From NCBI GenBank assembly GCA_028681135.1, contig JAQUJC010000002.1, positions 21,892 to 85,891 on the forward strand: a stretch of DNA of 64,000 bases, written 5' to 3'. The notes beneath the pieces are model-generated. The model made no database searches and had not been told where the DNA came from. It saw nothing but the letters and a program-made list of their open reading frames with translations. The stretch is from Kiritimatiellia bacterium (GTDB taxonomy: Bacteria; Verrucomicrobiota; Kiritimatiellia; CAIQIC01; Lenti-01). The number at the start of each line of letters is the position of its first letter. Positions within the stretch are counted from its first letter, which is position 1. The translations under genes and the position numbers were made by a program. Shown in pieces: positions 17,615 to 61,677 of this stretch.

Positions 17615-17650
17615 TTTTCCATACTGTGGAAAACTATTTTTCCATAGCCC
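17615..17650. repeat. family-A array 4: one full copy TTTTCCATACTGTGGAAAA plus a half copy
   Basis: TTCCA starts at 17617 and 17640. The half copy encodes the last codons (MEK) and the TAG stop of the GH20 gene on the minus strand. Confidence 0.85.
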
Positions 17651-23953: not shown

Positions 23954-24112
23954 ACGGCGTACTCCTTGATTCCTGCCAAGCGGCAGCGGGTTGAACTTAC
24001 ACTGTCCGATGACTCTAGCCCAATAGACCTCGAGACTCAACCACCAAAATCACCCCCCACCACCACCCAAATCCGTAGGGCGTCGGCCAGTCTGATTCAA
24101 GAAGGAGCCCCC

Positions 24113-24997: not shown

Positions 24998-25004
24998 CCT
25001 GTTC
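24777..25004 (+). repeat. 2 x 114-bp tandem duplication (3 mismatches)
   Basis: GCAATGGCTGCAAAGCACATATACC... starts at 24777 and again at 24891. Each copy ends with the inverted repeat CATAGGACTGACCCCT. Confidence 0.95.
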
Positions 25005-25035
25005 AACCGTGGAACAAGATGGGCGTAACCGGTGG

Positions 25036-25602
25036 CTACTCGAAAAAGCTTTCTTCGCTGGGGGGGCGTTCGTTTTCGAAGATGCAGATGTTCTGGCGCA
25101 TTGTGTTGCACGTTTTTTTGAAATGCTCGCAGGCGTCCAGGAAATCCGCGCCCTGTTTGTCGGGTGGGGTCTCATGGACGGAGCGGGTGGTCTTGAGAAA
25201 CTCATCGCATTCCCCGGCAAAGTCTAGCAATTGGCGGTAGAGGCCCTGGGGCAGGCCCCGCGCGCCCTCCTTGGACATAATTTTGTCCTGCAATTCTGGG
25301 ATGATGTCGATGAGATCGGCGTTGTAGTGGGAGAAGATATGCCGCGCCAGACCCAGCCATTCGATACCGAAACGGTCCTGGTGTCCCGACAGGTCCAGCG
25401 TCAGTCGCTCGCTAATATTTAGCAGCGCCAGAAGGTCGCGATAGATGTGAACGCGGATTTTGGCTTCTGACTTCCGGGCATGTTGCGCCTGGGCTTTTTT
25501 CTGGCGCTGGGCGTCTGCACTGCCGCCCAGCCGGAGTTGGGGGGGGGTCTTCTTCGGCTTGGGTTTTATGATGACAGTAGAGTTGGGCGGCCGCGGCTTC
25601 AT
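25036..25602 (-). CDS. hypothetical protein (basic N-terminus)
   Basis: ORF with an ATG start. No motif recognised. Its 3' end overlaps the meaningless extension of the transposase-fragment ORF. Confidence 0.45.
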   Translation of the reverse strand: MKPRPPNSTVIIKPKPKKTPPQLRLGGSADAQRQKKAQAQHARKSEAKIRVHIYRDLLALLNISERLTLDLSGHQDRFGIEWLGLARHIFSHYNADLIDIIPELQDKIMSKEGARGLPQGLYRQLLDFAGECDEFLKTTRSVHETPPDKQGADFLDACEHFKKTCNTMRQNICIFENERPPSEESFFE

Positions 25603-25698
25603 GCTGGTACCCGTAGCATGTTCGCTTCAAACATACCAGCAAGAATAGCCGCACCCGCCGACTAACACGCAAGGGGAGGGTGCGCCCCCCCCCCCTCG

Positions 25699-26496
25699 TT
25701 ATCGGCGGGGTTGGGCGTCGAGAATTCTGATGGCTTCGATGGCGGTGTGGATGGCCTCTTCCACGCCGACCTTGGCGATGATGGGTGCGTCGTCGTAGGT
25801 CAGGCCAATGGTGGCCAGGATTTCGCCGGCGCGGACGCGGCGAATACTGGCGACAACAAAGAGCGCGCCGGATTCCATCGATGTCGAGATGACGTTCGAG
25901 CGGTACCAGGCATTCCATTTGGCGTCGATGTCCTCACGGATGGGGATGTCCTTGTCCTCGATGAAGAAGGCATCCTTGCAGTGGCCAATGCCGGTATGGG
26001 CGGGGAATTTCAGTTTAGCGGCGGCTTGGCGCAGGGCCAGCGACACGTCGAGGTCGGCCACGGCGGGATAGGATAGCGGTACGTACTGGCGGGAGGTGCC
26101 TTCCTCGCGCACGGCACCGGTGGTGATGCACAGATCGCCGAGTTTGACCTCGCGCTGAAGAGCGCCACAGGTGCCGATGCGAATGAAGGTATCGGCACCG
26201 CACTTGATCAGCTCTTCGACCGCGATGGCTGTGGAGGGGCAGCCGATGCCGGTGGAGCAGCAGGAGACCTTGATGCCATCGACGGTGCCGGTGAATGTGC
26301 GGTACTCGCGGTTATAGGCGACTTCCTTGGCATTATCAAAGAAAGACGCAATCAGCGGCACGCGGCCGGGGTCGCCCGGTAGCAATACATAGCGGCCCAC
26401 ATCGCCGGGCTTTAGGTGCACGTGATACTGCATTTCAACAGTGGCCTTCTTCGGTGCCTTCTTGCTGGTCGTTTTCTTGGATACCTTTTTTGCCAT
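25699..26496 (-). CDS. uridine/nucleoside phosphorylase (PNP_UDP_1 family) with Lys-rich N-terminal tail
   Basis: VLLPGDPGRV, YRTFTG..DGIKVSCCSTGIGCPSTAIAVEEL, IRIGTCGAL. The 21-aa tail MAKKVSKKTTSKKAPKKATVE precedes an alternative start at 26433. Confidence 0.8.
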   Translation of the reverse strand: MAKKVSKKTTSKKAPKKATVEMQYHVHLKPGDVGRYVLLPGDPGRVPLIASFFDNAKEVAYNREYRTFTGTVDGIKVSCCSTGIGCPSTAIAVEELIKCGADTFIRIGTCGALQREVKLGDLCITTGAVREEGTSRQYVPLSYPAVADLDVSLALRQAAAKLKFPAHTGIGHCKDAFFIEDKDIPIREDIDAKWNAWYRSNVISTSMESGALFVVASIRRVRAGEILATIGLTYDDAPIIAKVGVEEAIHTAIEAIRILDAQPRR

Positions 26497-26628
26497 GGTG
26501 GATTCCTTATGGTGAGGATTGGATCTTCTTATTGCAAATTATGTTCTCACGCAAAGACGCGAAGACGCCAAGATAATCAAGTGACTGAATTGTGGTGTCT
26601 TTGCGGCTTGGCGTGAGACTCCTTCTGA

Positions 26629-27465
26629 TTAAAGTTTTTCCTTGGCCAGTTCCTGCCAGAATTGGAGGGTGAGTTTTTTCATGTTGGCCATGGCCTTTTG
26701 GGAGGTCTCGAAGACCTCCTGATGGGTCAAGGGCTGGTCCAGGATACCGGCGGCCATGTTGGTGATGCAGGAGAGGCCGACGACCCGCAGCCCGGCGGCA
26801 TTGGCGAGCATGGCCTCAGGCACGGTGCTCATGCCCACGGCATCGGCACCGAGGGTACGCCAGGCACGGACTTCGGCGGGAGTCTCATAGGTCGGGCCGG
26901 TCCCGGCGAAATAGGTGCCGTGGCGCAGGGCGACATCGGTTTTTTCGCCGGCGCGCGAAAGGACTGCGCGCAGCTTGCGGTCATAGATGAACGACTGGTC
27001 CGGGAAGCGGGCCCCCCAGAAGGGATCGTGAGCGCCCAGCAGGGGGGTGACGCCCATCATATTGATATGGTCGTCGATGATCATCAGGTCACCGGGGGTC
27101 CACTCGGGATGGGTGCCGCCGGCGGCATTGGTCAGGAAGACGGCTTTGGCGCCGAGGCTTTTGAGCAGGAAGAGGGGGGTGGCCACGGCTTCCCAGCCCA
27201 CGCCCTCATAGACGTGGCGGCGGCCCTGGAAAATGAGGGTTTCGATCCCGGCGGATTTGCCCCAGACCAGACGTCCGGCATGACCCGCGACGCCCGCCTT
27301 GCCCAGGCTGGGAATCTCTTCGTAGGACAGGACGCCGAGAGGGTCAAATGCGTCGGCAATATCGCTGAGGCCGGAGCCGAGGATCATGCCCAGTTGGGGG
27401 GTGGCCTCGGGGAAGGCTTTTTTGACAGTAGCGAGAGAGGCATCGAGGGGGTCACGGTTAATCAT
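26629..27465 (-). CDS. punA: purine nucleoside phosphorylase (PunA/MTAP trimeric family)
   Basis: GMILGSGLS, VAGHAGRLVWG, QGRRHVYEG, GPTYETPAE, VGMSTVPE. Confidence 0.85.
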   Translation of the reverse strand: MINRDPLDASLATVKKAFPEATPQLGMILGSGLSDIADAFDPLGVLSYEEIPSLGKAGVAGHAGRLVWGKSAGIETLIFQGRRHVYEGVGWEAVATPLFLLKSLGAKAVFLTNAAGGTHPEWTPGDLMIIDDHINMMGVTPLLGAHDPFWGARFPDQSFIYDRKLRAVLSRAGEKTDVALRHGTYFAGTGPTYETPAEVRAWRTLGADAVGMSTVPEAMLANAAGLRVVGLSCITNMAAGILDQPLTHQEVFETSQKAMANMKKLTLQFWQELAKEKL

Positions 27466-27529
27466 GGGGTGGGGCTCCTTTCAATGAGCAATGAATAGGT
27501 TTAATGAAGGACGAGAATGGGGGCTGGAG

Positions 27530-27685
27530 TTTTCCACAGTGTGGAAAACTGTTTTCCATAGTGTGGAAAAAACAGGCCGGAATTTTCCATAGCGTGGAAA
27601 ACCCATGCGATATTTTTCCACAGTGTGGAACCTTTTTTTCCATAGCGTGGAAACCTCACATAACAGCGTTCCATAGCGTGGAAAC
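27530..27685. repeat. family-A array 2: six copies of TTTTCCAYAGYGTGGAAAA
   Basis: TTCCA starts at 27532, 27554, 27585, 27616, 27638 and 27669, giving spacings of 22, 31, 31, 22 and 31 bp. It lies between the deoA stop and the punA start. Confidence 0.95.
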
Positions 27686-27694
27686 CCCCGGGCA

Positions 27695-29005
27695 TCACCC
27701 GGTGATGCGGGCGACGATGGGTTTGGGGGCGGTGACGGGGTCGGCGACGATGTCGAAGGCCTGTTGGATGTGGGCCATGGCCTGATCGAGTTTGTCCTGC
27801 GCGGTCGCGTGCACCGTGACGAGCGGCTGGCCTGCTTCAACCTTATCGCCGATCTTGGCGAGGCCCGAGGTGCCGACGGCATAGTCGATGACATCATCGG
27901 TCTTCTGGCGTCCGCCCCCCAGCACCAGGACGGCGCGGCCGATGGACTCGGCATCCACCTTGGCGAGGTAGCCAGACGTGGGGGCGGGGTAGGGGGTGAC
28001 GATGGCGGCCTGCGGCAACTTGGAGAGGTCGTCGAGGCTCGAAACATCAGCACCCTGGAGGGCGGCCATTTGCTTGAATTTCTCGAAGGCGGCGCCCGAA
28101 GCGATGATCTGCTCGAGGTTGCCGCGGGCCTCTTCGACTGTGGCGGCCTTATGCCCAAGCACGAGCATTTCGGCAGTGAGGGCCAGGGTGATATTCATCA
28201 GGTCGCTAGCGGCGTGTTGACCTTGCAGGCATTCGATGGACTCGATGACTTCCAAGGCGTTGCCGGCGGTGCGGCCGAGGGGCTGGTTCATATCGGTGAT
28301 GAGCGCGACCATCCCTTTGTTCATGGCCTTGCCAACGCGGACCATCGACTCGGCGAGAGTGGTGGCATCTTCGATGGTGCGCATGAAGGCGCCCGCGCCC
28401 CACTTGACGTCGAGGACCAGTGAATCAATGCCTTCGGCCATCTTCTTGCACATGATGGAGGCGGTGATCAGGGCGATGGAGGCGACGGTGCCGGTCACAT
28501 CGCGCAGCGCGTAGAGCTTTTTATCGGCCGGGGCGATTTCGCCTGTTTGGCCGATCATGGAGAAGCCGCATTGCTGGATGATGTCGATGAACGCCTTTTC
28601 GGAGAGATTCGTATTGAAGCCGGGGATGGCTTCCAGTTTGTCGAGGGTGCCGCCGGTGATGCCAAGGCCCCGGCCGGAAATCATCGGCACGGCCAGTCCG
28701 GCGGCGGCGGCGAGCGGGGCGAGGATCAGCGAGACCTTGTCGCCGATGCCGCCGGTGGAATGCTTATCGACCTTGGGCCCGGTGAGTGACGAGGTATCGA
28801 CCATAGCGCCGGAGTGCATCATGGCATCGGTCAGGACGGCGATTTCCTCGGGCGTCATGCCCTTGAGGTAGATCGCCATGGCCATGGCGGCCATCTGGTA
28901 GTCGGGGATGGTTCCCTGGGTGTAGCCATTGATGAAAAAGCGGATTTCCTCATCGGTGAGGATGTGGCCGTCGCGTTTCTTTTCGATTATCCATTGGGGG
29001 ACCAT
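27695..29005 (-). CDS. deoA: thymidine/pyrimidine-nucleoside phosphorylase
   Basis: IIEKKRDGHILTDEEI, DYQMAAMAMAI, DKHSTGGIGDKVSL. The ATG at 29005 is preceded by GAAGGAG, so it is preferred over TTG 29020. Confidence 0.9.
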   Translation of the reverse strand: MVPQWIIEKKRDGHILTDEEIRFFINGYTQGTIPDYQMAAMAMAIYLKGMTPEEIAVLTDAMMHSGAMVDTSSLTGPKVDKHSTGGIGDKVSLILAPLAAAAGLAVPMISGRGLGITGGTLDKLEAIPGFNTNLSEKAFIDIIQQCGFSMIGQTGEIAPADKKLYALRDVTGTVASIALITASIMCKKMAEGIDSLVLDVKWGAGAFMRTIEDATTLAESMVRVGKAMNKGMVALITDMNQPLGRTAGNALEVIESIECLQGQHAASDLMNITLALTAEMLVLGHKAATVEEARGNLEQIIASGAAFEKFKQMAALQGADVSSLDDLSKLPQAAIVTPYPAPTSGYLAKVDAESIGRAVLVLGGGRQKTDDVIDYAVGTSGLAKIGDKVEAGQPLVTVHATAQDKLDQAMAHIQQAFDIVADPVTAPKPIVARITG

Positions 29006-29146
29006 GGGGGACTCCTTCAATTTTCAATGTCCACTATTCAATATCCAAAGATACAATCCGGCTCGGCGGGGACGCTTCGCCCACCCTTCGATCCGGTGGG
29101 AGGGCGAACCCTCCGGGTGAGCCGGGGTTTCGGGATTCCTCCGCTG

Positions 29147-30325
29147 CTACACAAAGGACGCACCTCGCGGCATGGCCGGGATGCCAAAGAAGCGGGCGAG
29201 GGATTGAGCGATGTCGTAGAAGCCACAGCGGATGCCGAGGTTGTCACCTGGCTGGCCGGGTTGATACACCAGCAGCGGCACGTATTCGCGGGTGTGGTCG
29301 GTGCCCTGAAAGGTGGGGTCGTTGCCGTGGTCGGCGGTGAGAATGAGCATATCGCCTTCCTTGAGGAGCGGCAGGTAGGTCGCCAGCCACTGGTCGGTCA
29401 GTTCGAGACTATGCGCATAGCCCTTGGGATCACGGCGGTGGCCGTAGAGCATGTCATAGTCGATGAAGTTGGCAATGATTAGGCCTGAGTCCTTCTCCTG
29501 GGTCCATTTCTCGACCAGCGCCTGGGAATCGAGGTTGTTGCCGGTGTGATTCGATTCGGTGATGCCGCGGTGGGCGTAAATGTCTTCGATCTTGCCCACG
29601 GCATAAACGGGAATATCTTTCTCCACCAGGCGTTCGAGGACGGTCGGCTCGTCGGGCAAAAAGGCGAAATCCCGACGATTTTCGGTGCGCTTGAATGCGC
29701 CGGGTTGGCCGATGAAGGGGCGGGCGATGACGCGCCCGACGCGCAGCGGGTCGCACAGGCGGCGAGCTATTTCGCAGTAGCGATAGAGTTCGGGGACGGG
29801 CACGACATCTTCATGAGCGGCGATCTGGAAGACGCTATCGGCCGAGGTGTAGCAGATGAGCGCGCCGGTTTCGAGGTGCTCGGGGCCGAGTTCGTCGAGA
29901 ATGACGGTGCCGCTGGCGGCCTTGTTGCCGATGAGGTTGCGGCCGGTTTCCTTTTCAAACGCGGCAATCAGCTCGGGGGGAAACGAGTTTTCAAGGGGGA
30001 AGTTGTGGAAGCCGGGATCCACTTCCAGGCCGGCGATTTCCCAATGGCCGGTGATGGTGTCTTTGCCATCGGACATTTCGCGCATGGCGCCAAAGGAGGC
30101 CATGGGGGCGTCTACGGGGTCGACGCCCAGGATGGTTTGGGCGGGGCGATGGTGCAGGAGCGGGGGGATATTGCCCAGGCCCATCTGTTGGAGGGTGGGC
30201 AGGTGGACGCCTCCCGTGGCAGTGGCAAGATTGGCGAGGGTCGAGGACCCCTCATCGCCATATTCTGCGGCGTCGGGCGCGGCGCCAATGCCCACGGAGT
30301 CGAGAATGATCAGGATGGCTTTCAT
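29147..30325 (-). CDS. deoB: phosphopentomutase
   Basis: MKAILIILDSVGIG, TGHWE, ADHGNDPT. The length is typical for DeoB. Confidence 0.9.
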   Translation of the reverse strand: MKAILIILDSVGIGAAPDAAEYGDEGSSTLANLATATGGVHLPTLQQMGLGNIPPLLHHRPAQTILGVDPVDAPMASFGAMREMSDGKDTITGHWEIAGLEVDPGFHNFPLENSFPPELIAAFEKETGRNLIGNKAASGTVILDELGPEHLETGALICYTSADSVFQIAAHEDVVPVPELYRYCEIARRLCDPLRVGRVIARPFIGQPGAFKRTENRRDFAFLPDEPTVLERLVEKDIPVYAVGKIEDIYAHRGITESNHTGNNLDSQALVEKWTQEKDSGLIIANFIDYDMLYGHRRDPKGYAHSLELTDQWLATYLPLLKEGDMLILTADHGNDPTFQGTDHTREYVPLLVYQPGQPGDNLGIRCGFYDIAQSLARFFGIPAMPRGASFV

Positions 30326-30421
30326 CTGTGGCCTCTTTCTTTAGTGCGTTACACGCGGTGGGGGAACATCATTACACAACATTATTCACTATCAGCGTTC
30401 ATTAAGCAAATGGCGCGGTTG

Positions 30422-30447
30422 AAATAAAAACCCCGTTTTCACGGGGT
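30422..30447 (-). terminator. intrinsic terminator overlapping the stop codon of the last BMC-P gene
   Basis: The minus-strand RNA is ACCCCG-UGAAAA-CGGGGU followed by UUUUAUUU. Confidence 0.55.
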
Positions 30448-30717
30448 GTTCTCTTCGATGATGGTATCGACTATGCCGACAATGACACTGCGCACCGGCC
30501 CGTTTTTAGATTCTAAAATCTGACGTCCTCCATTTCCTTCGTTGAGGACGAGAACGGTTTCGCCCGGCCCCGCGCCGACGCAATCAATGGCGACCAGGTA
30601 GTCATCGGTGATCGTGCCATCCGGTTTGATCTGCTCGACAATCAGCAGTTTGCGGTGGTCATAAAAGGGGTGACGAATGGTGGAATGGATATTGCCGATG
30701 ACGTTGCCGAGGATCAT
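30439..30717 (-). CDS. BMC-P pentameric vertex protein (EutN/CcmL family), copy 3
   Basis: MILGNVIGNIHSTIRHPFYDHRKLLIV...AIDCVGAGPGETVLV. ATGA overlap with the preceding gene. Confidence 0.8.
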   Translation of the reverse strand: MILGNVIGNIHSTIRHPFYDHRKLLIVEQIKPDGTITDDYLVAIDCVGAGPGETVLVLNEGNGGRQILESKNGPVRSVIVGIVDTIIEENTP

Positions 30718-31004
30718 GTGGGGCCCCCTTTCCACTGGGGGGCCTCGACGCCATCCACAATGCCGACAATGGCATGATCGACGGGGACAAACCACGGTTC
30801 GAGGAGCAGCGCGGCTTCGCGGCCGCCTTCGTAATAGATGAGTTCGTCGGGGCCGGCCATACGGGTGCCATCCGCACAGACGATGGGGGCCCCCTTGTCG
30901 GTGCCATCCTTGGCCAGGGGCTGAACCCAGAGCATGGGGACGCCTTCGAGGCCTTCGTAGACCTGAGTGGAGACCACCGTTCCTATAACTTTTCCTAGCA
31001 GCAT
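30714..31004 (-). CDS. BMC-P pentameric vertex protein (EutN/CcmL family), copy 2
   Basis: MLLGKVIGTVVSTQVYEGLEGVPMLWVQPL...VDHAIVGIVD. Confidence 0.8.
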   Translation of the reverse strand: MLLGKVIGTVVSTQVYEGLEGVPMLWVQPLAKDGTDKGAPIVCADGTRMAGPDELIYYEGGREAALLLEPWFVPVDHAIVGIVDGVEAPQWKGGPT

Positions 31005-31019
31005 GGCGATTCCTGTCGG

Positions 31020-31634
31020 TTAGGACGCAATTTCTCCCTCGAGGGTAAGCGGGTGGGCGAGATCGAAACGGGTGGAGACGGCAATTTGTGAAAGCAAGCC
31101 GTCGTGCGGCGACGTGAGCACGCGGTGCTGGGCGGGGATGCCGCGGGTTTCCAGAGAGGCCAGCGCGATATCCTGAGCGGCTTCGACATCGGTGAGATCG
31201 CCCTGCACAATGGCCAGCCCGCGGCCATCCATGCGCGGGTCGCCCGCACGGAATTCGAGCAACTCGACATTGACGCCCTTCATGGCGCGCTCAATGGCCT
31301 GGATGTTGCAGGAGACGGTGGGCGTTTCGAGAATCCACAGGGGGCCTTCGCCCATCTGGCGTTTGTTGCCCAGAATGGCCTCGTAGAGCGCGGGGTGGAT
31401 ATCGGGCAAGAAGGCGTCGTCGGCCACTTGCAGGCCGCCGTGGAAGAGGGCTTCTTCGTGGGCTTCGGCGACGGAGGCCGTGGTGCCGGCGAGCAAAATG
31501 AGAAACCGTCCCGCGCCGATGGTGCCGGAGCGGATCATGCCAATCGGTGACTTTTTGAGCAGGGCATCGGCGGCAAAGAGCCCGGCCGGCACGCTAGTCA
31601 TTTCGATGGAGGCAAAGGCGGGATGGGGTTTCAT
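31020..31634 (-). CDS. tandem-domain BMC shell protein (BMC-T-like)
   Basis: Two BMC-like halves: ASIEMTSVPAGLFAADALLKKSPI... and LWILETPTVSCNIQAIERAMKGVNVELLEF... Confidence 0.65.
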   Translation of the reverse strand: MKPHPAFASIEMTSVPAGLFAADALLKKSPIGMIRSGTIGAGRFLILLAGTTASVAEAHEEALFHGGLQVADDAFLPDIHPALYEAILGNKRQMGEGPLWILETPTVSCNIQAIERAMKGVNVELLEFRAGDPRMDGRGLAIVQGDLTDVEAAQDIALASLETRGIPAQHRVLTSPHDGLLSQIAVSTRFDLAHPLTLEGEIAS

Positions 31635-31637
31635 TAA

Positions 31638-33101
31638 TTAAACAATCCTAAAGTGGTCAACCATGGCACAGCGGCGCCAGCGGGAGAAACTACGGGGGGT
31701 AGTGATGCCTTCACCTGTGGGCGAGGCGATGGTGAAGGAGGTCGGTCCTTCGCCGCCAAAACCGATTCCAGCCTGCGAGCGGCCGTTTTTGACGAAAATC
31801 GAGCAGTTGCACTGGCGGGCCATCTTGGACAGCTTATCGATGTTCTTGGAGTGCATGACCGCGGTGTGGTAGTTGAAGCCTTCCATCTGCAAGCCGATGT
31901 CGATGGCGACGTCCACATTGGGTGCCCGGGTTATGGGCATGATGGGCAGCATCTGCTCGGTCCAGAGCAGGGGATGGTCCTCGGGCACCTCGACAATACC
32001 TAGGCGGGTGGTGGGGGGGGCGGAGATACCGATTTCCGCGAGAATCTTGTCGGCGTTTTGGCCAATCCATTTACGGTTGATGGTGGCATGTTCGCGGGGA
32101 CCGGCCATCTTAGAAAAGATGACCTGTTCCATGGCGGGGATTTTAGACGAGTCGATCAGGACCGCATTGTTGCGTGTCATGGCCTGGATAAGTTTGTCGG
32201 CGACCGAGGCGACCACGATGGTCTCCTTTTCCTCGACGCAAATCATATTGTTATCAAAGGACGCGCCCAGGACGATGTCCGCCGCGGCTTTTTCAATGTC
32301 GGCCGTTTCATCCACGACGACGCAGGGGTTGCCGGGGCCGGCGCAGATAGCGCGTTTGCCGCTGGCCATGGCCGCCTTGACGACCCCGCCCCCGCCGGTG
32401 ACAACGATGACGCGGATGCCGGGGTGCTTCATGAGGGCACCCGCCGTTTCGATGGTGGGCTCTGCCACGCAAACGCAGGTATTGGGCGGCCCGCCGGCGG
32501 CCATGACGGCCTTGTTCAACAAGGCGATGGTCTGGATGGAACACTGTTTGGCGGAGGGATGGACATTGAAGACAACGACATTGCCGGCGGCCAACATGCC
32601 GATGGCATTGCAAATGATCGTGGAGGTGGGGTTGGTGGTCGGGGTGATGGCGCCTAAAACACCCCAGGGGGCGGATTCCATCAGCGTCAGGCCGTGATCG
32701 CCCGTCCAGGCGATCGGGGCGAGGTCTTCGGTGCCGGGAGTTTTTTCAATGACGAGCTGGTTTTTGAGGATTTTGTCCTCGAAGCGGCCATAGCCGGTTT
32801 CGTCGGCGGCAGCTTTCGCCAGGGCTGTTGCATTTTCGCGCATCACGGCACGGATGCTCTGAATGACCTGCTCGCGTTTGGATAGGGCCAAACGGGCGAA
32901 GAGCGGGAAGGCGGCCTGGGCCGCGGTCACGGCTTCGTCAATGGTCTGAAATACGCCCAGGGCGCCATCAATGGCCGCGGGGGCGGTGGCCGGGGCCGGG
33001 GCCGCAGCAGGGGCCGCGACGGGGGCAGGGGCGGGCGAGCCACTGAGATCGCCGGCAATACGCCGGGCGATGGCTTCGATGTCTTGATCGGTCAGTTTCA
33101 T
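31638..33101 (-). CDS. CoA-acylating aldehyde dehydrogenase (PduP/EutE-like) with N-terminal encapsulation peptide
   Basis: The amphipathic MKLTDQDIEAIARRIAGDL is followed by a Pro/Ala linker (SPAPAPVAAPAAAPAPATAPAA). The AldDH core has ITPTTNPTST and a catalytic-Cys region. Confidence 0.85.
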   Translation of the reverse strand: MKLTDQDIEAIARRIAGDLSGSPAPAPVAAPAAAPAPATAPAAIDGALGVFQTIDEAVTAAQAAFPLFARLALSKREQVIQSIRAVMRENATALAKAAADETGYGRFEDKILKNQLVIEKTPGTEDLAPIAWTGDHGLTLMESAPWGVLGAITPTTNPTSTIICNAIGMLAAGNVVVFNVHPSAKQCSIQTIALLNKAVMAAGGPPNTCVCVAEPTIETAGALMKHPGIRVIVVTGGGGVVKAAMASGKRAICAGPGNPCVVVDETADIEKAAADIVLGASFDNNMICVEEKETIVVASVADKLIQAMTRNNAVLIDSSKIPAMEQVIFSKMAGPREHATINRKWIGQNADKILAEIGISAPPTTRLGIVEVPEDHPLLWTEQMLPIMPITRAPNVDVAIDIGLQMEGFNYHTAVMHSKNIDKLSKMARQCNCSIFVKNGRSQAGIGFGGEGPTSFTIASPTGEGITTPRSFSRWRRCAMVDHFRIV

Positions 33102-33150
33102 GTGATCTCCCGCAGGTGAAGGGGGGCAGCGGTAGGGGAGGGCTGCATTC

Positions 33151-33209
33151 CAGACGACACGAAGGCCGTCTTTCCAATAGCGGACGACACGAAGGTCGTC
33201 CTTCCAAAA
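33151..33209 (-). repeat. two tandem near-identical stem-loops in the BMC-P / aldDH intergenic spacer
   Basis: In the RNA sense: GGACGAC-CUUCGU-GUCGUCC and AGACGGC-CUUCGU-GUCGUCU. Each is followed or preceded by UUGGAA. Confidence 0.7.
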
Positions 33210-33254
33210 TCGCCGGCGTCAGCCTGAATGACTGGGATGCAGCCGTTCATTTCG

Positions 33255-33542
33255 TTATTTGGTGTACTTGGTTTTGCCATCGATATCCCAGGTATCCACG
33301 ATGGCCAAAATGACGGCGTCGACGGGTTTGTTCTGGGTCAGGGTGGTCTGGCGGGCCGATGAACCGGCCGCGGTCAGTACCATTTCGCCAGGGCCGGCGC
33401 CCATGGCATCAGCGGCGACAACAAACGATGGGGTTTCCTTGCCATCGGTGTCCACCAGGCGGACGAGGAGAAAACGGATGCCGTCCAAGACGGATTCTTT
33501 ACGAGTTGACACGACTGTGCCAACGACTTTGCCAAGATTCAT
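33255..33542 (-). CDS. BMC-P pentameric vertex protein (EutN/CcmL family), copy 1
   Basis: [31 protein letters not shown]...[14 protein letters not shown]. Confidence 0.85.
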
Positions 33543-33625
33543 GGGGACTCCGGGGCTAGACTACGGACAGGGGGGGGGGCGCAGCCGCACCCGGGAGGAT
33601 GCGGTCTGCGCCACAGTCGGGGGGC

Positions 33626-33919
33626 CTACTTGCCCTTGGCCGGGGCGCGGCCGAGCGGCAGCACCACTTCCAGGTTGGCGTGCGGGCGGGCGATCACATG
33701 GACAGCCACTACTTCGCCGACGCGTCCGCCGGCAATCTGCCCGGCGTCACAGGCGGCCTTGACGGCTGCCACGTCGCCACGAACGATGACGGAGGTAAAG
33801 CCCCCGCCGGTCTTTTCGTAGGTGACCAGTTCGACCTTGGCGGCCTTTACCATCGCATCCGCGGCTTCCACCGTTGCGGGGAAGGAGCGTGTCTCAATCA
33901 TTCCTAATGCTTCAGCCAT
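33626..33919 (-). CDS. BMC-H hexameric shell protein (PduA/EutM-like)
   Basis: [32 protein letters not shown]...[13 protein letters not shown]...VHVIARPH. Confidence 0.9.
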
Positions 33920-33965
33920 TTGTATACCTCTTGTTGTTGGTTGTGTTTTTCAAATTTGCCCGTCG

Positions 33966-34601
33966 TTAGTGGCGGGCGCCCGAGCCATCGGCACGCCCCG
34001 TGACCGCCTCAATGGCAGCTTCGGCAGCGCGGTAGGCAACATCGATGTCGCGTTCTTCGCCCCCGAGCCATATCCGTCCAAAAGAGCCGAACGTAATGAC
34101 TTCGAGGATGTTGATGTTGGCCGCTTTTTCGGCCTCGTTCGCGGCGAGCGCGGCGTAGGCGGCGGGGGCGACCTCCATAATATACAGCGATTGCCCGCGG
34201 GTGATCAAGTTGCCGTGGCGCATGCGGTTGATCAGCATCGTCTGGTGGTCATCGATGTTGCGAATGACCTGGGACGAATAGACCTTGGGCTTTATGCGCT
34301 CGCCTTCGTCAAGATCGAGGTCCTTGAGGATGGCCGCGCCCGCCTGGCGGACATCGGCCTGCGAGTCCGAGTGAATCTCGAGCATGCCGTAGAGGCGCTC
34401 GACGATCTGCATGCCGGGGCGCACATGGGTGGACTTGAGCGCCACGTCGGTGACCTGGTTAATGGCGATGCCCGGGGAAATTTCCACGAACAACGCGGCC
34501 TGCCCCTCGACGGGCAGGTAGCCTTTGGCCACGGTGGCCAGAAAAGAGGCAAACTGCGGTTGGAGGCTGTCAATGAATATGTATGTTCTGAGTTCTGCCA
34601 T
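33966..34601 (-). CDS. tandem-domain BMC shell protein (BMC-T-like)
   Basis: Two BMC-like halves: IFIDSLQPQFASFLATVAKG...LEIHSD and LYIMEVAPAAYAALAANEAEKAANINILEV... Confidence 0.65.
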   Translation of the reverse strand: MAELRTYIFIDSLQPQFASFLATVAKGYLPVEGQAALFVEISPGIAINQVTDVALKSTHVRPGMQIVERLYGMLEIHSDSQADVRQAGAAILKDLDLDEGERIKPKVYSSQVIRNIDDHQTMLINRMRHGNLITRGQSLYIMEVAPAAYAALAANEAEKAANINILEVITFGSFGRIWLGGEERDIDVAYRAAEAAIEAVTGRADGSGARH

Positions 34602-34614
34602 GGGGGCTCCTTGC

Positions 34615-35886
34615 TTATTTGCCGCCGGTAGCGGCGGCCGCTTCTTCCATCATTTTCACACTGTTGGATGATCCAATACGGGTGGCCCCGTTTTGAACCA
34701 TCAGCATGGCGTCGGCATAGGTGCGAACGCCACCGGAGGCCTTGACGCCGAGGCGCTTGGGCGCGACGGTGCGGGCCATGAGGGCGATGTCTTCGGCCTT
34801 GGCCCCGCCCTTGTTGAATCCCGTGGAGGTCTTGACGTAGTTGGCGCGGGCGCGCATGGACGCCTCGCAGGCCTTGACAATCTCGTCCGGGGTTAGCAGG
34901 CACGTCTCGATGATCACCTTGAGCAGAGCGCCGCCATCTGTGACGGACTCTGCCACCGTGCGGATGTCCTTCATGACGGCATCCCAATCGCCAGACTTCA
35001 CGAGGCCGACGTTGATAACCATGTCGATTTCCTTGGCGCCTTCGCGGATGGCGCGGCGGGCTTCCAGGGCTTTGATTTCCGGCGCGCCAGCGCCGAGGGG
35101 AAACCCGACGACCGCGCAAACCTTGACGGAGGAACCGCGCAAAATCTGAGCCACATAGCGCACCCACGAGGAGTTGACGCAGCAACTGAAGAAGTTGTGC
35201 TGGAGGGCTTCCTCGCACAACGTCTTAACGTCGTCTTTGGTGGCTTCCGGTTTGAGCAGGGTATGATCGATGATCCGCGCCAATTGGGCGGGTGTCAGGT
35301 TCTCTCCGCCCGCCGAGGTGGAGCCCCCCCCGCCGACAATTTGTTTCACGCGCTCGGCGATCCGCGCGACATCCTGGGTGCTGAGTTCCAATTTCATCTC
35401 CTTAATGGCGGTCATGACGGGGGTGCCCGCTCGTCCGCTTTCGAGGTCCTGGATCATTTGGACGCGCCGCAGGTGCCTCTCTTCGGTGCAGTCCGTGGCG
35501 ATGAAGACATCTGCGATGGCTTTCGCCTGTTCAAAAGTGGTTTGCCCGGACCCCAGGGTCAGGACGTTGGCCCCATTGTGCTCGCGAGAGTTTTTTGCCA
35601 GGACCTCATTATAGCAGGCGGCGGCGCGGACACCGGGAATTTTGTTGGCTGTCATGGCCGAGCCTATGCCCGCACCATCCACCATGATGCCGAGATCGCA
35701 CCGTCCCGAAGCTACCGCGCGGGCCACCGCCGCCGCAAAGACGGGGTAATCAACTGACTCTTTGGAATTTGTTCCGGCATCGGTCACATTATGTCCCTGG
35801 CCCTTGAGCCAATCCGACAACTGGGTCTTTAATTCAAAGCCACCATGGTCGGAGCCAACGGCAATTCTGCGCGGACGTGTAGACAT
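34615..35886 (-). CDS. fusion: RpiB/LacA-type sugar-phosphate isomerase + deoxyribose-phosphate aldolase (DeoC)
   Basis: aa 1-148: IAVGSDHGGFELK...GIGSAMTANK...REHNGANVL (RpiB). aa ~200-423: IDHTLLKPEAT, VCAVVGFPLG, IDMVIN, VKTSTGF (Schiff-base Lys region), VKASGGVR (DeoC). Confidence 0.85.
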   Translation of the reverse strand: MSTRPRRIAVGSDHGGFELKTQLSDWLKGQGHNVTDAGTNSKESVDYPVFAAAVARAVASGRCDLGIMVDGAGIGSAMTANKIPGVRAAACYNEVLAKNSREHNGANVLTLGSGQTTFEQAKAIADVFIATDCTEERHLRRVQMIQDLESGRAGTPVMTAIKEMKLELSTQDVARIAERVKQIVGGGGSTSAGGENLTPAQLARIIDHTLLKPEATKDDVKTLCEEALQHNFFSCCVNSSWVRYVAQILRGSSVKVCAVVGFPLGAGAPEIKALEARRAIREGAKEIDMVINVGLVKSGDWDAVMKDIRTVAESVTDGGALLKVIIETCLLTPDEIVKACEASMRARANYVKTSTGFNKGGAKAEDIALMARTVAPKRLGVKASGGVRTYADAMLMVQNGATRIGSSNSVKMMEEAAAATGGK

Positions 35887-35967
35887 AACGGCGCATATGT
35901 TTAACTCTTGGCGCGCCTAGGGCAAGCCTTATTTACAAAAAAATGAGAAAAAACGTTTGACTGTTAC

Positions 35968-36001
35968 ATAAAACCTAAAAGAAGGGACTTCATTCGTCCC
36001 T
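35968..36001 (-). terminator. intrinsic terminator downstream of arsC and upstream of the BMC operon
   Basis: Minus-strand RNA AGGGAC-GAAUGAA-GUCCCU followed by UCUUUUAGGUUUUAU. It lies ~200 nt after the arsC stop. Confidence 0.45.
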
Positions 36002-36199
36002 AACCAGGATGGTAAAGAGTTGTTCGAGCCTGTTCAGATCGCTTTCTCAGGGAACCAGTGCTGCGTGCGCAGGCAGATTCGCCCAAATGAAGAACCGGCA
36101 GATGGCGATGGCGCATCTGTGGCTTTGCGGTAGGGCGAGGCGTTCCTGCCGAACTGCGGCGGGTTGACTCCTGATCCCGGCTCACCCGGTCCCAACCCC

Positions 36200-36664
36200 T
36201 CAGAGAGTTGGGACGTCTCTACCAGGGGTTGTCGAACTCAGGGCGTCCGGCAACGTTTCGACAAAGGCCTTGATCTCGTCGCGGACGCGGCGGTAATGGG
36301 AAAGGGCTTCTGCTTCGGTCGAAGCCTCCCGGGCCAGACGTGGCGGATCGTCGAAGCCCGCATGCACCACGTGTGTCTTGCCGGGGAAGAGGGGGCAGGA
36401 CTCGTGGGCATGGTCGCAGACCGTCACAACATAATCAAAGTCCTGCGTTGGCAGGTCGGCGACGGTTTTGGACCGCTGGCCGGAGATGTCCACCCCCGCC
36501 TCGGCCATGACCTTTATGGCTCGCGGATTGAGACCATGGGTTTCGATGCCGGCGGAAAATGCATTGATCTGGTCGCCTTTTAACGCACGTACCCAGCCTT
36601 CGGCCATCTGGCTGCGACACGAATTGCCCGTGCAGAGGAAGAGGATGTTCACGGGGCCGCTCAT
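36200..36664 (-). CDS. arsC: arsenate reductase / low-molecular-weight phosphotyrosine phosphatase family
   Basis: ILFLCTGNSCRSQMAEG P-loop, SAGIETHGLNPRAI, VVTVCDHAHESCPLFPG. An alternative upstream start is at 36712. Confidence 0.75.
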   Translation of the reverse strand: MSGPVNILFLCTGNSCRSQMAEGWVRALKGDQINAFSAGIETHGLNPRAIKVMAEAGVDISGQRSKTVADLPTQDFDYVVTVCDHAHESCPLFPGKTHVVHAGFDDPPRLAREASTEAEALSHYRRVRDEIKAFVETLPDALSSTTPGRDVPTL

Positions 36665-36894
36665 GGGAGTCGTGGGCTGGGAGATGTTAGTGCCATACCC
36701 AGTTCTCTCCACGTGGCGAGCCTGTCAGAGGGATTGTCTTCATGGGGGCTCCTATTCCGTTTTGGTATTCCTCTATGGAGCAATGGCTCCAAAGACCATG
36801 CCGCTGGTCGGGGCCATGACAACGACGAGGGCCCCTGCAAGGGAAAACGCCGGCCCCAGACAGAGCACGACATCTTCACGGGCATACCACGTGG

Positions 36895-58768: not shown

Positions 58769-58783
58769 AATGGGGAGGGGGCG

Positions 58784-61633: not shown

Positions 61634-61677
61634 CGTGGCTTTGCGTTGGCCAGAACAGTTATGCTAGGTTGCCCGGG

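What the first reader, a model, noticed from the sequence alone, without database searches (positions are those of the whole stretch)
25699..35886. DeoC-type (sugar-phosphate) microcompartment locus directly joined to a full deoxynucleoside breakdown gene set
Seen in sequence:
- One minus-strand block encodes an RpiB-DeoC fusion, two tandem-domain BMC proteins, one BMC-H and three BMC-P.
- It also encodes an acylating aldehyde dehydrogenase with an N-terminal encapsulation peptide.
- After a terminator come deoB, deoA, punA and a udp-like phosphorylase.

Established knowledge:
- DERA splits deoxyribose-5-P into glyceraldehyde-3-P and acetaldehyde.
- Metabolosomes sequester aldehydes around an acylating AldDH.
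- SPU-type loci with DeoC and RpiB were defined bioinformatically (Axen/Kerfeld 2014 and Sutter 2021, from memory). As far as I know they have not been characterised experimentally.

Inference:
- This organelle channels deoxyribose from nucleosides or extracellular DNA.
- No phosphotransacylase (PduL/Pta), alcohol dehydrogenase or acetate kinase is visible anywhere in the 64 kb. CoA/NAD recycling is therefore unexplained.
Basis: partly seen in the sequence, partly recalled or inferred. Interest (0 to 1): 0.78.

Follow-up and report, generated by a model that had tools for sequence, protein, structure and literature searches.

The report
SPU3 microcompartment locus with deo genes
This is a typical member of an already catalogued bacterial microcompartment type (SPU3, which breaks down deoxyribose phosphate) from an uncultured Verrucomicrobiota lineage; the one modestly new point is that the genes making its substrate from deoxynucleosides sit next to it and stay there across related genomes.

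Summary
Window 25699-35886 (minus strand) encodes, in order:
- an RpiB-DERA fusion
- a CcmP-like BMC-Tdp
- one BMC-H
- a BMC-P
- a CoA-acylating AldDH with an N-terminal encapsulation peptide
- a PduT-like BMC-Ts without a pore cysteine
- two overlapping BMC-P genes
- a terminator-like hairpin
- deoB, deoA, punA and a Udp-like phosphorylase.

No PTAC, Pta, acetate kinase, Fe-ADH or PduS is found anywhere in the 64 kb.

This matches feature for feature the published SPU3 subtype (Sutter 2021, Supplementary Data 2). The fusion is 83% identical to the one in Verrucomicrobia bacterium ADurb.Bin018, the example used by Dwyer et al. 2024.

What I add:
- The deo module follows the shell genes in 15 of 15 close relatives.
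- It abuts or overlaps the last BMC-P gene in three more distant PVC (Planctomycetes-Verrucomicrobia-Chlamydiae group) genomes.
- Nucleoside phosphorylases recur downstream of SPU3 loci in three other phyla (7 of 49 diverse loci in all).

The BMC papers I read do not mention this linkage. It supports the accepted model that deoxyribose-5-phosphate is the substrate. Verdict: a new member of a known kind, of modest interest.

The parts
34615..35886 (-). RpiB-like / DERA fusion protein (423 aa), the signature enzyme of the locus
   Evidence: Pfam gives PF02502 3e-49 and PF01791 4.5e-13. NCBIfam TIGR00126 deoC scores 271.8 against a cut-off of 117, and rpiB TIGR01120 scores 146.2 against 138.65. 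Best PDB matches are DERA 5dbu at 1e-69 and RpiB 3he8 at 7e-39. The DERA motifs YVKTSTG, GVKASGG and EIDMV are present. In the RpiB domain the catalytic Cys-Gly-Thr is replaced by Asp70-Gly-Ala72.
35329..35391 (-). Encapsulation-peptide-like helix between the two domains of the fusion (residues about 166-186, LELSTQDVARIAERVKQIV)
   Evidence: It shares the motif L-[ST]-x-Q-D-[IV]-x-x-I-A-x-R-[IV] with the AldDH N-terminus. That motif occurs only twice in the six-frame translation of the whole window. Its hydrophobic moment is 0.73, above the 95th percentile of the background. An internal EP is described for SPU3 fusions in Sutter 2021 Supplementary Data 2.
33966..34601 (-). BMC-Tdp: a permuted tandem-domain, CcmP-like, gated-pore shell protein (211 aa)
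   Evidence: PDB matches are HO BMC-T 5v76 at 7.8e-77 and CcmP 5lsr/4ht5 at 1.6e-76. NCBIfam CcmP scores 316.6, below the 340 cut-off. The Glu68-Arg69 dyad is invariant in alignment A1. It is 89-97% identical across the close clade.
33626..33919 (-). BMC-H hexamer shell protein (97 aa)
   Evidence: PF00936 2.2e-28. The KAAK and (A)RPH interface motifs are visible in the sequence.
33255..33542 (-). BMC-P pentamer protein 1 (95 aa)
   Evidence: PF03319 3.9e-28.
31638..33101 (-). CoA-acylating aldehyde dehydrogenase (487 aa) with an N-terminal encapsulation peptide and an Ala/Pro-rich linker
   Evidence: PF00171. NCBIfam NF011927 scores 629.6 against a cut-off of 403. The best PDB match is the BMC-associated acylating AldDH 5jfl at 1e-133, and the catalytic Cys288 aligns. 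The N-terminus MKLTDQDIEAIARRIAGDL plus an A/P linker is conserved across phyla.
31020..31634 (-). BMC-Ts: a PduT-like tandem-domain shell protein (204 aa) without a pore cysteine
   Evidence: Two PF00936 domains. PduT 3n79 matches at 4.6e-22. The position of PduT residue 38, the Fe-S ligand, aligns to Gly40.
30714..31004 (-). BMC-P pentamer protein 2 (96 aa)
   Evidence: PF03319 3.6e-18.
30439..30717 (-). BMC-P pentamer protein 3 (about 92 aa), overlapping BMC-P2 by ATGA
   Evidence: PF03319 3.9e-23, with the match starting at residue 27 of the longer ORF. Orthologues are 90-93 aa and overlap the previous gene in the same way.
30421..30447 (-). Terminator-like hairpin plus T-run overlapping the BMC-P3 stop codon; it separates the shell module from the deo module
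   Evidence: The same hairpin is conserved in 15 of 17 close-clade loci that carry both BMC-P3 and deoB, with loop variation. It is absent where BMC-P3 and deoB overlap or abut in L028, L029 and L039.
29147..30325 (-). deoB, phosphopentomutase (392 aa)
   Evidence: PF01676. NF003766 scores 506 against 256, and TIGR01696 scores 450 against 341.
27695..29020 (-). deoA/pdp, thymidine or pyrimidine-nucleoside phosphorylase (441 aa)
   Evidence: PF02885, PF00591 and PF07831. NF004490 scores 555 against 269, and TIGR02644 scores 552 against 409.
26629..27465 (-). punA, PNP-I type purine-nucleoside phosphorylase (278 aa)
   Evidence: PF01048 2e-49. NF006054 scores 313.8 against 218.
25699..26496 (-). 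Udp-like nucleoside phosphorylase (265 aa) with a Lys-rich N-terminal tail
   Evidence: PF01048 1.8e-37. TIGR01718 scores 271.8, just below the 280.3 cut-off. The Lys-rich tail is conserved in character in 9 of 9 close relatives.
35897..35980 (-). Conserved upstream region of the operon: an AT-rich element, then a -35-like CTTGCC, then GTTAAACAT. It is a candidate promoter and operator. No Shine-Dalgarno sequence precedes the start codon.
   Evidence: The 27-nt consensus TTTAGGTTTTGTGAAAACGGTTTAACG occurs once per locus, with its start roughly 80-95 nt upstream of the fusion start codon, in 24 of 25 close relatives with 0-6 mismatches. The window's copy is more diverged and carries an indel.

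Best explanation
The region is an intact SPU3-type (sugar-phosphate-utilising) bacterial microcompartment operon. It comes from an uncultured Verrucomicrobiota (Kiritimatiellia-like) bacterium and is coupled to a deo module.

Proposed mechanism:
1. In the cytosol, DeoA/Pdp, PunA and the Udp-like phosphorylase split deoxynucleosides into a base plus deoxyribose-1-phosphate.
2. DeoB converts deoxyribose-1-phosphate to deoxyribose-5-phosphate (dR5P).
3. dR5P enters a shell built from one BMC-H, a CcmP-like gated BMC-Tdp, a PduT-like BMC-Ts and three BMC-P proteins.
4. [quoted passage not shown]
5. The co-encapsulated acylating AldDH traps the acetaldehyde as acetyl-CoA and makes NADH.

Both cargo proteins carry the same encapsulation-peptide motif. 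The RpiB-like domain lacks the catalytic cysteine and is more likely a packaging or scaffold domain than an isomerase.

The locus has no PTAC, alcohol dehydrogenase or PduS, and the BMC-Ts has no Fe-S pore. NAD+/NADH and CoA/acetyl-CoA must therefore cross the shell, most plausibly through the BMC-Tdp pore.

Shown here: gene content, family membership, conserved catalytic and targeting motifs, and conserved synteny. Inferred: the substrate, encapsulation, the route taken by cofactors, and co-regulation.
For: - Family and threshold matches for every gene.
- A feature-for-feature match to the published SPU3 description.
- 83-90% identity and the same gene order as 25 Verrucomicrobiota/Kiritimatiellia MAG loci, including ADurb.Bin018 (L017), the published SPU3 fusion example.
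- The DERA Schiff-base Lys motif and the AldDH catalytic Cys are conserved.
- The EP motif is found only on AldDH and the fusion in the whole window, and it is conserved on AldDH across phyla.
- The deo module lies downstream in 15 of 15 close loci with enough sequence.
- deoB overlaps or abuts the last BMC-P gene (-4 to +6 nt) in L028, L029 and L039, which have 63-66% identical fusions.
- Two PNP_UDP_1 genes plus a pyrimidine-nucleoside phosphorylase directly follow SPU3 loci in a gammaproteobacterium, a planctomycete and an acidobacterium.
- Nucleoside phosphorylases are among the most frequent Pfam families in 125 ORFs downstream of 49 diverse SPU3-like loci.
- SPU6 DERA was shown to be active and the SPU RPI inactive on R5P by Dwyer et al. 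2024.
Against: - There is no experimental or expression evidence for this organism; all close relatives found are MAGs.
- A conserved terminator-like hairpin and a 113-nt spacer separate the shell and deo modules in this clade, so co-transcription is not assured.
- Only 7 of 49 diverse SPU3-like loci have nucleoside phosphorylases next to them, and one PVC relative (L030) has none. The linkage is therefore lineage-specific.
- The deo enzymes also act on ribonucleosides.
- The role of the RpiB-like domain is unexplained.
- Cofactor passage through BMC-Tdp is a literature hypothesis and is untested.
- The rest of the genome could not be searched for a satellite PTAC or ADH.
Confidence: 0.75

Rival explanations
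1. The microcompartment operon and the deo genes are merely neighbours. On this view the deo cluster is a housekeeping nucleoside-salvage operon with its own promoter, transcribed independently, and its adjacency carries no functional meaning.
For: A terminator-like hairpin sits at 30447-30430, followed by a 113-nt spacer and a separate Shine-Dalgarno sequence before deoB. The hairpin is conserved in the close clade. Most diverse SPU3-like loci (42 of 49) have no deo genes downstream. L030 has none.
Against: The order and orientation are conserved in 15 of 15 close loci even though the intergenic regions turn over, with insertions of 0.7-1.8 kb and a restriction-modification system inserted between deoA and punA in L111. 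The genes overlap or abut in L028, L029 and L039. Nucleoside phosphorylases recur independently next to SPU3 loci in three other phyla. DERA itself is the fourth classical deo enzyme.
Confidence: 0.1
2. The organelle's main substrate is not nucleoside-derived dR5P. It would instead be another sugar phosphate or aldehyde source, for example a rare pentose or deoxy-sugar phosphate handled by the RpiB-like domain, or acetaldehyde from another pathway. The deo genes would then supply only one of several inputs.
For: The RpiB-like domain is strictly retained and fused, yet it has no role in dR5P cleavage. SPU RPIs have an unexplained function. Some SPU3 and SPU6 genomes carry EUT satellite modules. 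Aldolase_II and TIM recur near other SPU3 loci.
Against: The DERA domain scores far above the deoC equivalog cut-off and keeps its catalytic motifs. The RpiB domain lacks the catalytic Cys, and the SPU6 homologue was essentially inactive on R5P. From established chemistry, an aldose-ketose isomerase cannot act on a 2-deoxy sugar. No other aldehyde-generating enzyme lies in the locus or anywhere in the 64-kb window.
Confidence: 0.12
3. The locus is a decaying remnant that no longer makes a compartment.
For: An IS200-like gene lies just downstream (24508-25227). The window's copy of the conserved upstream element is diverged.
Against: All 12 ORFs are intact, with high GC3. Shell proteins are 89-97% identical to orthologues in more than 20 species-level genomes. 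The catalytic and targeting motifs are intact.
Confidence: 0.03

Closest known systems
SPU3 BMC locus, fused RPI-DERA form, as catalogued by Sutter et al. 2021 and exemplified by Verrucomicrobia bacterium ADurb.Bin018 (BWX54) in Dwyer et al. 2024
   Same: It has the same gene set and order: fusion, CcmP-like Tdp, BMC-H, BMC-P, AldDH with an N-terminal EP, Ts without a pore Cys and without PduS, then two BMC-P, with no PTAC. The ADurb.Bin018 contig (L017) shows 83% identity for the fusion, the same order, and deoB downstream.
   Different: It comes from a different species-level lineage; the best protein match anywhere is 92%. The spacer between BMC-P3 and deoB is 113 nt here against about 715 nt in L017. 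The main texts and the Supplementary Data 2 part that I read do not mention the deo genes.
SPU6 BMC of Chloroflexi, whose DERA and RPI were expressed and assayed (Dwyer et al. 2024)
   Same: It has the same signature chemistry (DERA plus acylating AldDH). The RPI likewise lacks the canonical catalytic Cys. DERA and RPI associate physically, as a complex there and as a fusion here.
   Different: In SPU6 the DERA and RPI are separate proteins, the EP is at the C-terminus of AldDH and on the RPI, the Tdp belongs to a different clade, and there is no BMC-Ts.
Classical deo operons: E. coli deoCABD; B. subtilis dra-nupC-pdp and drm-pupG (from my own knowledge)
   Same: The enzyme set is the same: DERA, thymidine or pyrimidine-nucleoside phosphorylase, phosphopentomutase and purine-nucleoside phosphorylase, clustered and co-oriented.
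   Different: Here a shell gene set and an acylating AldDH are inserted between deoC and deoB, and deoC is fused to an RpiB-like domain. No DeoR/CytR-type regulator or NupC/NupG transporter is adjacent.
Hodarchaeales SPU-type archaeal microcompartments (preprint PMC12747264)
   Same: They share the DERA plus AldDH core and a proposed DNA-derived dR5P substrate. Lys/Arg-rich disordered tails occur in both systems.
   Different: The archaeal loci carry a PTAC, a flavoprotein fusion and an MNdh-Ts electron route. Their basic tail is on a BMC-P protein and was shown to bind DNA; here a Lys-rich tail sits on the Udp-like phosphorylase and is untested. As described there, their dR5P-forming enzymes were found by whole-genome analysis and are not described as part of the AMC operons.
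Haliangium ochraceum (HO) BMC shell and carboxysomal CcmP
   Same: The Tdp is 59% identical to HO BMC-T (5v76) and matches CcmP at 1.6e-76. The HO locus also has a BMC-P triplet.
   Different: The function of the HO BMC is unknown, and the carboxysome is anabolic. Here the Tdp scores below the CcmP equivalog cut-off.

Membership tests
SPU3 bacterial microcompartment locus (Sutter 2021, Supplementary Data 2) | The signature enzymes pfam01791 (DERA) and pfam02502 (RpiB-like) are present. In the fused form pfam02502 is N-terminal. | tested here: met
   PF02502 covers residues 8-145 and PF01791 covers residues 206-398 of one 423-aa protein. deoC and rpiB score above the NCBIfam cut-offs.
SPU3 bacterial microcompartment locus (Sutter 2021, Supplementary Data 2) | [quoted passage not shown] | tested here: met
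   The AldDH has an N-terminal helix MKLTDQDIEAIARRIAGDL followed by an A/P linker. The same motif occurs at fusion residues 166-186. These are the only two occurrences in the window. Targeting itself was not tested.
SPU3 bacterial microcompartment locus (Sutter 2021, Supplementary Data 2) | Shell set: one BMC-H, a BMC-P triplet (two adjacent and one separate), and a CcmP-like BMC-Tdp. | tested here: met
   One PF00936 single-domain protein; three PF03319 proteins, two of them overlapping at the 3' end; the Tdp matches CcmP and HO-T at about 1e-76.
SPU3 bacterial microcompartment locus (Sutter 2021, Supplementary Data 2) | A BMC-Ts with no cysteine in the pore and no co-occurring PduS homologue; no PTAC in the locus. 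| tested here: met
   Gly40 aligns with PduT residue 38. No PduS, PF06130 or PF01515 is found in any scanned ORF of the 64 kb.
SPU3 bacterial microcompartment locus (Sutter 2021, Supplementary Data 2) | Assignment by the catalogue's own shell-protein colour-clade HMMs and locus clustering (BMC Caller). | not testable with these tools
   BMC Caller HMMs are not available here. The substitute evidence is 83% identity and collinearity with a catalogued SPU3 genome, ADurb.Bin018 (L017).
Metabolosome (functional aldehyde-sequestering organelle) | The shell assembles, the cargo is encapsulated, and the aldehyde intermediate is confined. | not testable with these tools
   This requires expression, electron microscopy and biochemistry. 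Only sequence-level prerequisites were shown.
Metabolosome (functional aldehyde-sequestering organelle) | Internal cofactor recycling: a PTAC for CoA, and an alcohol dehydrogenase or PduS/MNdh for NAD+. | tested here: not met
   None is encoded in the locus or the window. This is typical of SPU2 and SPU3, where an incomplete core is recognised. The rest of the genome was not searchable.
deo (deoxynucleoside catabolism) gene set | DERA, phosphopentomutase, pyrimidine-nucleoside phosphorylase and purine-nucleoside phosphorylase are present and clustered. | tested here: met
   The NCBIfam models for deoC, deoB, deoA and punA all score above their cut-offs. All four genes are co-oriented within 10.2 kb.
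deo (deoxynucleoside catabolism) gene set | The fourth phosphorylase is a true uridine phosphorylase. | tested here: inconclusive
   TIGR01718 scores 271.8 against a 280.3 cut-off. The DeoD-type models also score below their cut-offs.
Active RpiB ribose-5-phosphate isomerase | The catalytic base Cys (E. coli Cys66 / C. thermocellum Cys65; residue numbering from memory) lies in the GxxxCGTG motif. | tested here: not met
   The query has vDGAG where solved RpiB structures have iCGTG. This is consistent with the SPU RPIs that Dwyer 2024 reported as lacking the Cys and being inactive on R5P.

The most novel reading that the evidence does not exclude
In this PVC lineage the SPU3 organelle would be the terminal module of a dedicated deoxynucleoside or DNA-scavenging operon. 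It would work as an 'open-cofactor' metabolosome with no internal CoA or NAD+ recycling at all, so that NAD(H) and CoA or acetyl-CoA shuttle through the gated CcmP-like BMC-Tdp. The conserved hairpin would set the expression ratio between the shell and deo modules. The conserved Lys-rich tail on the Udp-like phosphorylase would tether nucleoside phosphorolysis to nucleic acid or to the shell surface.
Probability: 0.25. Interest if true: 0.55.

Novelty: new member of a known kind. Interest (0 to 1): 0.33.

Why it matters
SPU is one of the most widespread microcompartment types, but its physiological substrate has only been inferred from the presence of DERA. The conserved physical coupling found here provides independent comparative-genomic support for the idea that deoxyribose from nucleosides or DNA is the substrate. 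In some genomes deoB, deoA, punA and udp are coupled to an SPU3 shell operon with overlapping genes, and nucleoside phosphorylases recur next to SPU3 loci in other phyla. The BMC papers I could read do not report this.

The finding also points to a compact 12-gene cassette that could be expressed heterologously to test two things: substrate channelling, and the unresolved question of how a metabolosome without PTAC, ADH or PduS exchanges its cofactors.

Beyond that, the locus is an ordinary example of a catalogued type.

Tried and rejected
- Riboswitch or known regulatory RNA in the spacers: Rfam found nothing in 25000-36900 at E<=1, and only a tRNA in the whole window at the gathering threshold.
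- Sigma-70 promoter scan: no more hits than in shuffled sequence, and none in the relevant spacers.
- Candidate alcohol dehydrogenases in the window: the Fe-ADH hit at 41073-42260 is a sub-threshold match inside a 3-dehydroquinate-synthase-family protein. The SDR at 52905-54101 is an ordinary short-chain dehydrogenase; its apparent 100-aa N-terminal extension probably results from an ORF start called too far upstream, and it has no EP motif.
There was no positive control, so this is weak evidence. The Pfam survey of downstream ORFs is the better evidence that PTAC is not a common neighbour.
- Supplementary tables: those of Dwyer 2024 are not held, so I could not check whether deo genes appear in their per-locus Pfam tables. 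In Sutter 2021, text searches of the held supplementary files found no mention of nucleosides or phosphorylases, and the SPU3 description I read does not mention them.
- First gene-calling pass for the neighbourhood survey: it picked wrong-strand ORFs in GC-rich loci. It was redone with a GC3-weighted choice, which is still imperfect, so the counts are lower bounds.
- Satellite PTAC, Pta-AckA or ADH elsewhere in the source genome: this could not be searched, because only the window and flanks of up to 10 kb in relatives are accessible.
- Source genome: it does not appear among the best protein matches. The best fusion match is 92%.

Full report
**Observation**

Pfam and NCBIfam identify these genes, in order of transcription:
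- an RpiB-like/DERA fusion (34615-35886), with deoC TIGR00126 at 271.8 bits against a cut-off of 117
- a 211-aa tandem BMC protein (33966-34601)
- a BMC-H (33626-33919)
- a BMC-P (33255-33542)
- an aldehyde dehydrogenase (31638-33101), with NF011927 at 629.6 against 403
- a 204-aa tandem BMC protein (31020-31634)
- two further BMC-P genes (30714-31004 and 30439-30717) that overlap by ATGA
- deoB (29147-30325), deoA/pdp (27695-29020) and punA (26629-27465), all above their curated cut-offs
- a Udp-like phosphorylase (25699-26496), just below the uridine phosphorylase cut-off.

A hairpin, ACCCCGTGAAAACGGGGT followed by TTTTTATTT, overlaps the stop codon of the last BMC-P gene.

I scanned essentially every sizeable ORF of the 64 kb against Pfam. 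No PduL-type or Pta-type phosphotransacylase, acetate kinase, genuine Fe-alcohol dehydrogenase or PduS homologue is present.

**Anatomy in more detail**

- *The 211-aa shell protein* is a permuted, double-stacking BMC-Tdp. It matches the HO BMC-T structure 5v76 at 7.8e-77 and CcmP at 1.6e-76. A Glu68-Arg69 pair is invariant in the alignment. From memory, this corresponds to the gating dyad of CcmP and CsoS1D.
- *The 204-aa shell protein* is a PduT-like BMC-Ts at 4.6e-22. The position of the PduT Fe-S-ligand residue 38 is Gly40, so it cannot carry the pore cluster.
- *The AldDH* is closest to the BMC-associated CoA-acylating enzyme 5jfl at 1e-133, and the catalytic cysteine (Cys288) aligns.
- *The DERA domain* keeps the motifs YVKTSTG, GVKASGG and EIDMV. 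From my memory of the E. coli enzyme, these hold the Schiff-base Lys, the second Lys and the Asp.
- *The RpiB-like domain* aligns over its full length to solved RpiB structures, but it has vDGAG where they have iCGTG. The catalytic Cys is therefore Asp70, and the neighbouring Thr is Ala.
- *Targeting motif.* The AldDH N-terminus (MKLTDQDIEAIARRIAGDL, followed by an Ala/Pro-rich linker) and the interdomain segment of the fusion (LELSTQDVARIAERVKQIV) share the motif L-[ST]-x-Q-D-[IV]-x-x-I-A-x-R-[IV]. This motif occurs nowhere else in the six-frame translation of the window. On AldDH it is conserved in other phyla.
- *The four deo-module proteins* have no such extension, so they are predicted to be cytosolic.

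**What is already known**

This is the SPU (sugar-phosphate-utilising) class. It was defined by Axen et al. 2014 (PMC4207490) and expanded to seven subtypes and more than 280 loci by Sutter et al. 2021 (PMC8217296).

Their Supplementary Data 2 describes SPU3 as follows:
- AldDH with an N-terminal EP
- pfam02502 and pfam01791, fused in 12 loci with pfam02502 N-terminal and an internal EP-like sequence
- one BMC-H
- a BMC-P triplet
- a CcmP-like BMC-Tdp

Every one of these features is met here.

Dwyer, Sutter and Kerfeld 2024 (PMC11585597) curated 206 SPU loci and reported the fusion in 20 SPU3 loci, using Verrucomicrobia bacterium ADurb.Bin018 as their example. They showed that an SPU6 DERA is active, that the SPU6 RPI lacks the catalytic Cys and is essentially inactive on R5P, and that the two form a complex. 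They also noted that SPU loci without a PTAC typically encode a BMC-Tdp, and they propose that acetyl-CoA leaves through its pore.

"Not characterised experimentally" is outdated. The cofactor puzzle is a recognised property of the subtype, not a peculiarity of this window.

**Relatives**

A scan of one genome per species with the fusion protein returned 25 loci with 83-90% identity. All are Verrucomicrobiota, Kiritimatiellia or "Lentisphaerae" MAGs, and several have names pointing to anaerobic digesters or bioreactors. They include ADurb.Bin018 itself as L017.

The gene order fusion-Tdp-H-P-AldDH-Ts-P-P-deoB-deoA-punA-udp is kept wherever the contig is long enough. All 15 loci with at least 1.5 kb beyond the last BMC-P gene carry deo genes there. 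This holds even though the intergenic spacers turn over. The BMC-P3 to deoB gap ranges from 81 to 715 nt. The deoA to punA gap ranges from about 30 nt to 1.8 kb, and in L111 it holds a restriction-modification system.

The stop-codon hairpin is conserved in 15 of the 17 close-clade loci that carry both BMC-P3 and deoB.

More distant fusion-bearing PVC genomes (63-66% identity; L028, L029, L039) lack the hairpin. There deoB overlaps or abuts the last BMC-P gene (-4 to +6 nt), and in L028 and L029 a cytidine deaminase ends the cluster. One PVC relative, L030 (71% identity), has no deo genes there. It has instead, among others, a Bmp-family gene nearby on the opposite strand; from memory, that family includes nucleoside-binding lipoproteins.

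A second scan used the Tdp alignment and returned 80 loci from many phyla. Of these, 54 show the same SPU3 core order. Among the 49 with enough downstream sequence, 7 have nucleoside-catabolic genes directly downstream. Four are the PVC loci. The other three come from a Granulosicoccus (Gammaproteobacteria), a Planctomycetota and a Thermoanaerobaculia MAG; each has two PNP_UDP_1 genes and a pyrimidine-nucleoside phosphorylase but no DeoB.

I also ran a Pfam survey of 125 ORFs immediately downstream of these 49 loci:

| Pfam family | ORFs |
|---|---|
| PNP_UDP_1 | 6 |
| Pyrimidine-nucleoside phosphorylase domains | 6 |
| Methyltransf_25 | 6 |
| Aldolase_II | 4 |
| Metalloenzyme (DeoB) | 4 |
| TIM | 3 |

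Neither PTAC nor Fe-ADH appears among the 25 most frequent families.

The linkage to nucleoside phosphorolysis is therefore lineage-specific but recurrent. In some genomes it is clearly operonic.

I found no mention of phosphopentomutase or nucleoside phosphorylases in the main texts of the three BMC papers, in text searches of the held Sutter 2021 supplementary files, or in the SPU3 description I read. I also found no BMC paper pairing these terms in the searchable library. The Hodarchaeales preprint reports the dR5P-forming enzymes from genome-wide analysis, not as part of the operon. The per-locus tables of Dwyer 2024 were not available to me.

**Mechanism**

Steps 1-5 below are inferred from well-established enzyme families.
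1. The three phosphorylases convert deoxynucleosides to deoxyribose-1-phosphate.
2. DeoB makes dR5P.
3. dR5P enters the shell.
4. DERA gives glyceraldehyde-3-phosphate and acetaldehyde.
5. AldDH converts the acetaldehyde to acetyl-CoA and NADH.

Encapsulation of exactly two cargo proteins is predicted from the shared EP motif.

No PTAC, ADH or PduS is encoded in the locus or the window, and the Ts lacks an Fe-S pore. Unless satellite enzymes exist elsewhere in the genome, CoA/acetyl-CoA and NAD+/NADH must cross the shell. The gated Tdp is the obvious route, which is the literature hypothesis.

An aldose-ketose isomerase cannot act on a 2-deoxy sugar, and this domain also lacks the catalytic Cys. 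Its most likely role is therefore structural, in packaging. This agrees with Dwyer et al.

In this clade the conserved hairpin probably acts as a partial terminator or a transcript-stabilising element that uncouples the expression levels of the shell and deo modules. This is inference only.

**Rivals**

- *Chance adjacency.* This is disfavoured by the conservation, by the overlapping genes in L028 and L039 and the 6-nt gap in L029, and by the independent recurrence in other phyla.
- *A different or broader substrate range.* This cannot be excluded, because the RpiB-like domain is unexplained. However, no other aldehyde-generating enzyme is present.
- *Decay.* This is contradicted by intact ORFs and by 89-97% identical shell proteins across more than 20 species-level genomes.

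**Verdict**

The locus is a new member of a known, catalogued subtype (SPU3, fused form) from a lineage that already supplied the published example.

The modest added value is the documented, conserved coupling to a deo module. This gives genomic-context support for the accepted substrate hypothesis and provides a compact cassette for testing it.

I score interest at 0.33.

Noticed in passing
window 27532-27683; also 1254-1392, 17617-17631 and 54145-54243: A dispersed palindromic repeat, TTCCAYAGYGTGGAA(A), gives 22 matches on the two strands at up to 2 mismatches, against 0.06 expected. These fall at 16 distinct sites, because several palindromic sites match on both strands. The sites form arrays with 22- or 31-bp spacing in intergenic gaps: six copies between deoA and punA, four upstream of pheS, and five inside the Pfam-less 'ORF' 938-2572. 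Similar TTTCCACNNNGTGGAAA units appear upstream of the fusion gene in relatives (L007, L009, L012, L015, L027).
   Followed up: partly
window 26434-26496 (N-terminus of the Udp-like protein): The Udp-like phosphorylase has a Lys-rich, low-complexity N-terminal tail (MAKKVSKKTTSKKAPKKATVE). The tail is conserved in character but varies in length (10-30 aa) in 9 of 9 close relatives, and it is absent in the more distant L029. It recalls the DNA-binding K/R-rich tail on a shell pentamer in Hodarchaeales SPU-type compartments (PMC12747264).
   Followed up: partly
window 35948-35980, and roughly 80-95 nt upstream of the fusion start codon in L001-L027: A conserved 27-nt AT-rich element (TTTAGGTTTTGTGAAAACGGTTTAACG) occurs once per locus in 24 of 25 close relatives. 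It is followed by a -35-like CTTGCC and GATAAACAT, with no Shine-Dalgarno sequence before the start codon. This could be an operator plus promoter giving a very short or absent leader. The window's copy is diverged and carries an indel.
   Followed up: partly
window gap 27466-27694; L001, L006 and L111: The deoA-punA intergenic gap is an insertion hotspot. It ranges from about 30 nt to 1.8 kb among relatives, and in L111 it holds an N6/N4 methyltransferase plus an EcoO109I-like restriction enzyme.
   Followed up: partly
window 24508-25227 (+): An IS200-like (Y1_Tnp) ORF contains an internal tandem duplication of about 39 aa (LQWLQSTYTKRFNA[HR]HREWGYARFPKS.TLKHRTDPSC, twice). It overlaps the 3' part of the conserved unknown gene 25036-25602(-), which has a 48%-identical homologue directly after udp in L009.
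   Followed up: no
window 22433-24040 (-) and 21080-22414 (-): A 535-aa protein has an N-terminal zinc-ribbon-like motif, a predicted membrane segment and several OB-fold (tRNA_anti-codon) nucleic-acid-binding domains. It lies next to a lone TctA-family transporter subunit, just downstream of the deo module. A link to nucleic-acid uptake is conceivable but untested, and I could not check whether it is conserved next to the locus.
   Followed up: no
window 57727-61594 (+): A second IS200-like Y1_Tnp gene (57727-58764) is followed by a 936-aa protein with TOTE-conflict-system AEP primase, helicase (ResIII/DEAD) and DUF559 endonuclease domains (58784-61594). This is a candidate defence or conflict system.
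   Followed up: no
window 61669-63186 (+): A 505-aa protein combines CBM21/CBM53 carbohydrate-binding modules with an endonuclease/exonuclease/phosphatase domain.
   Followed up: no
L031 13644-18529; L032 14896-18188; L109 14338-17287: SPU3 loci in a gammaproteobacterium, a planctomycete and an acidobacterium are followed by two PNP_UDP_1 genes and a pyrimidine-nucleoside phosphorylase, but no DeoB-type phosphopentomutase was detected within 10 kb. The enzyme that makes dR5P in those genomes is therefore unidentified.
   Followed up: partly
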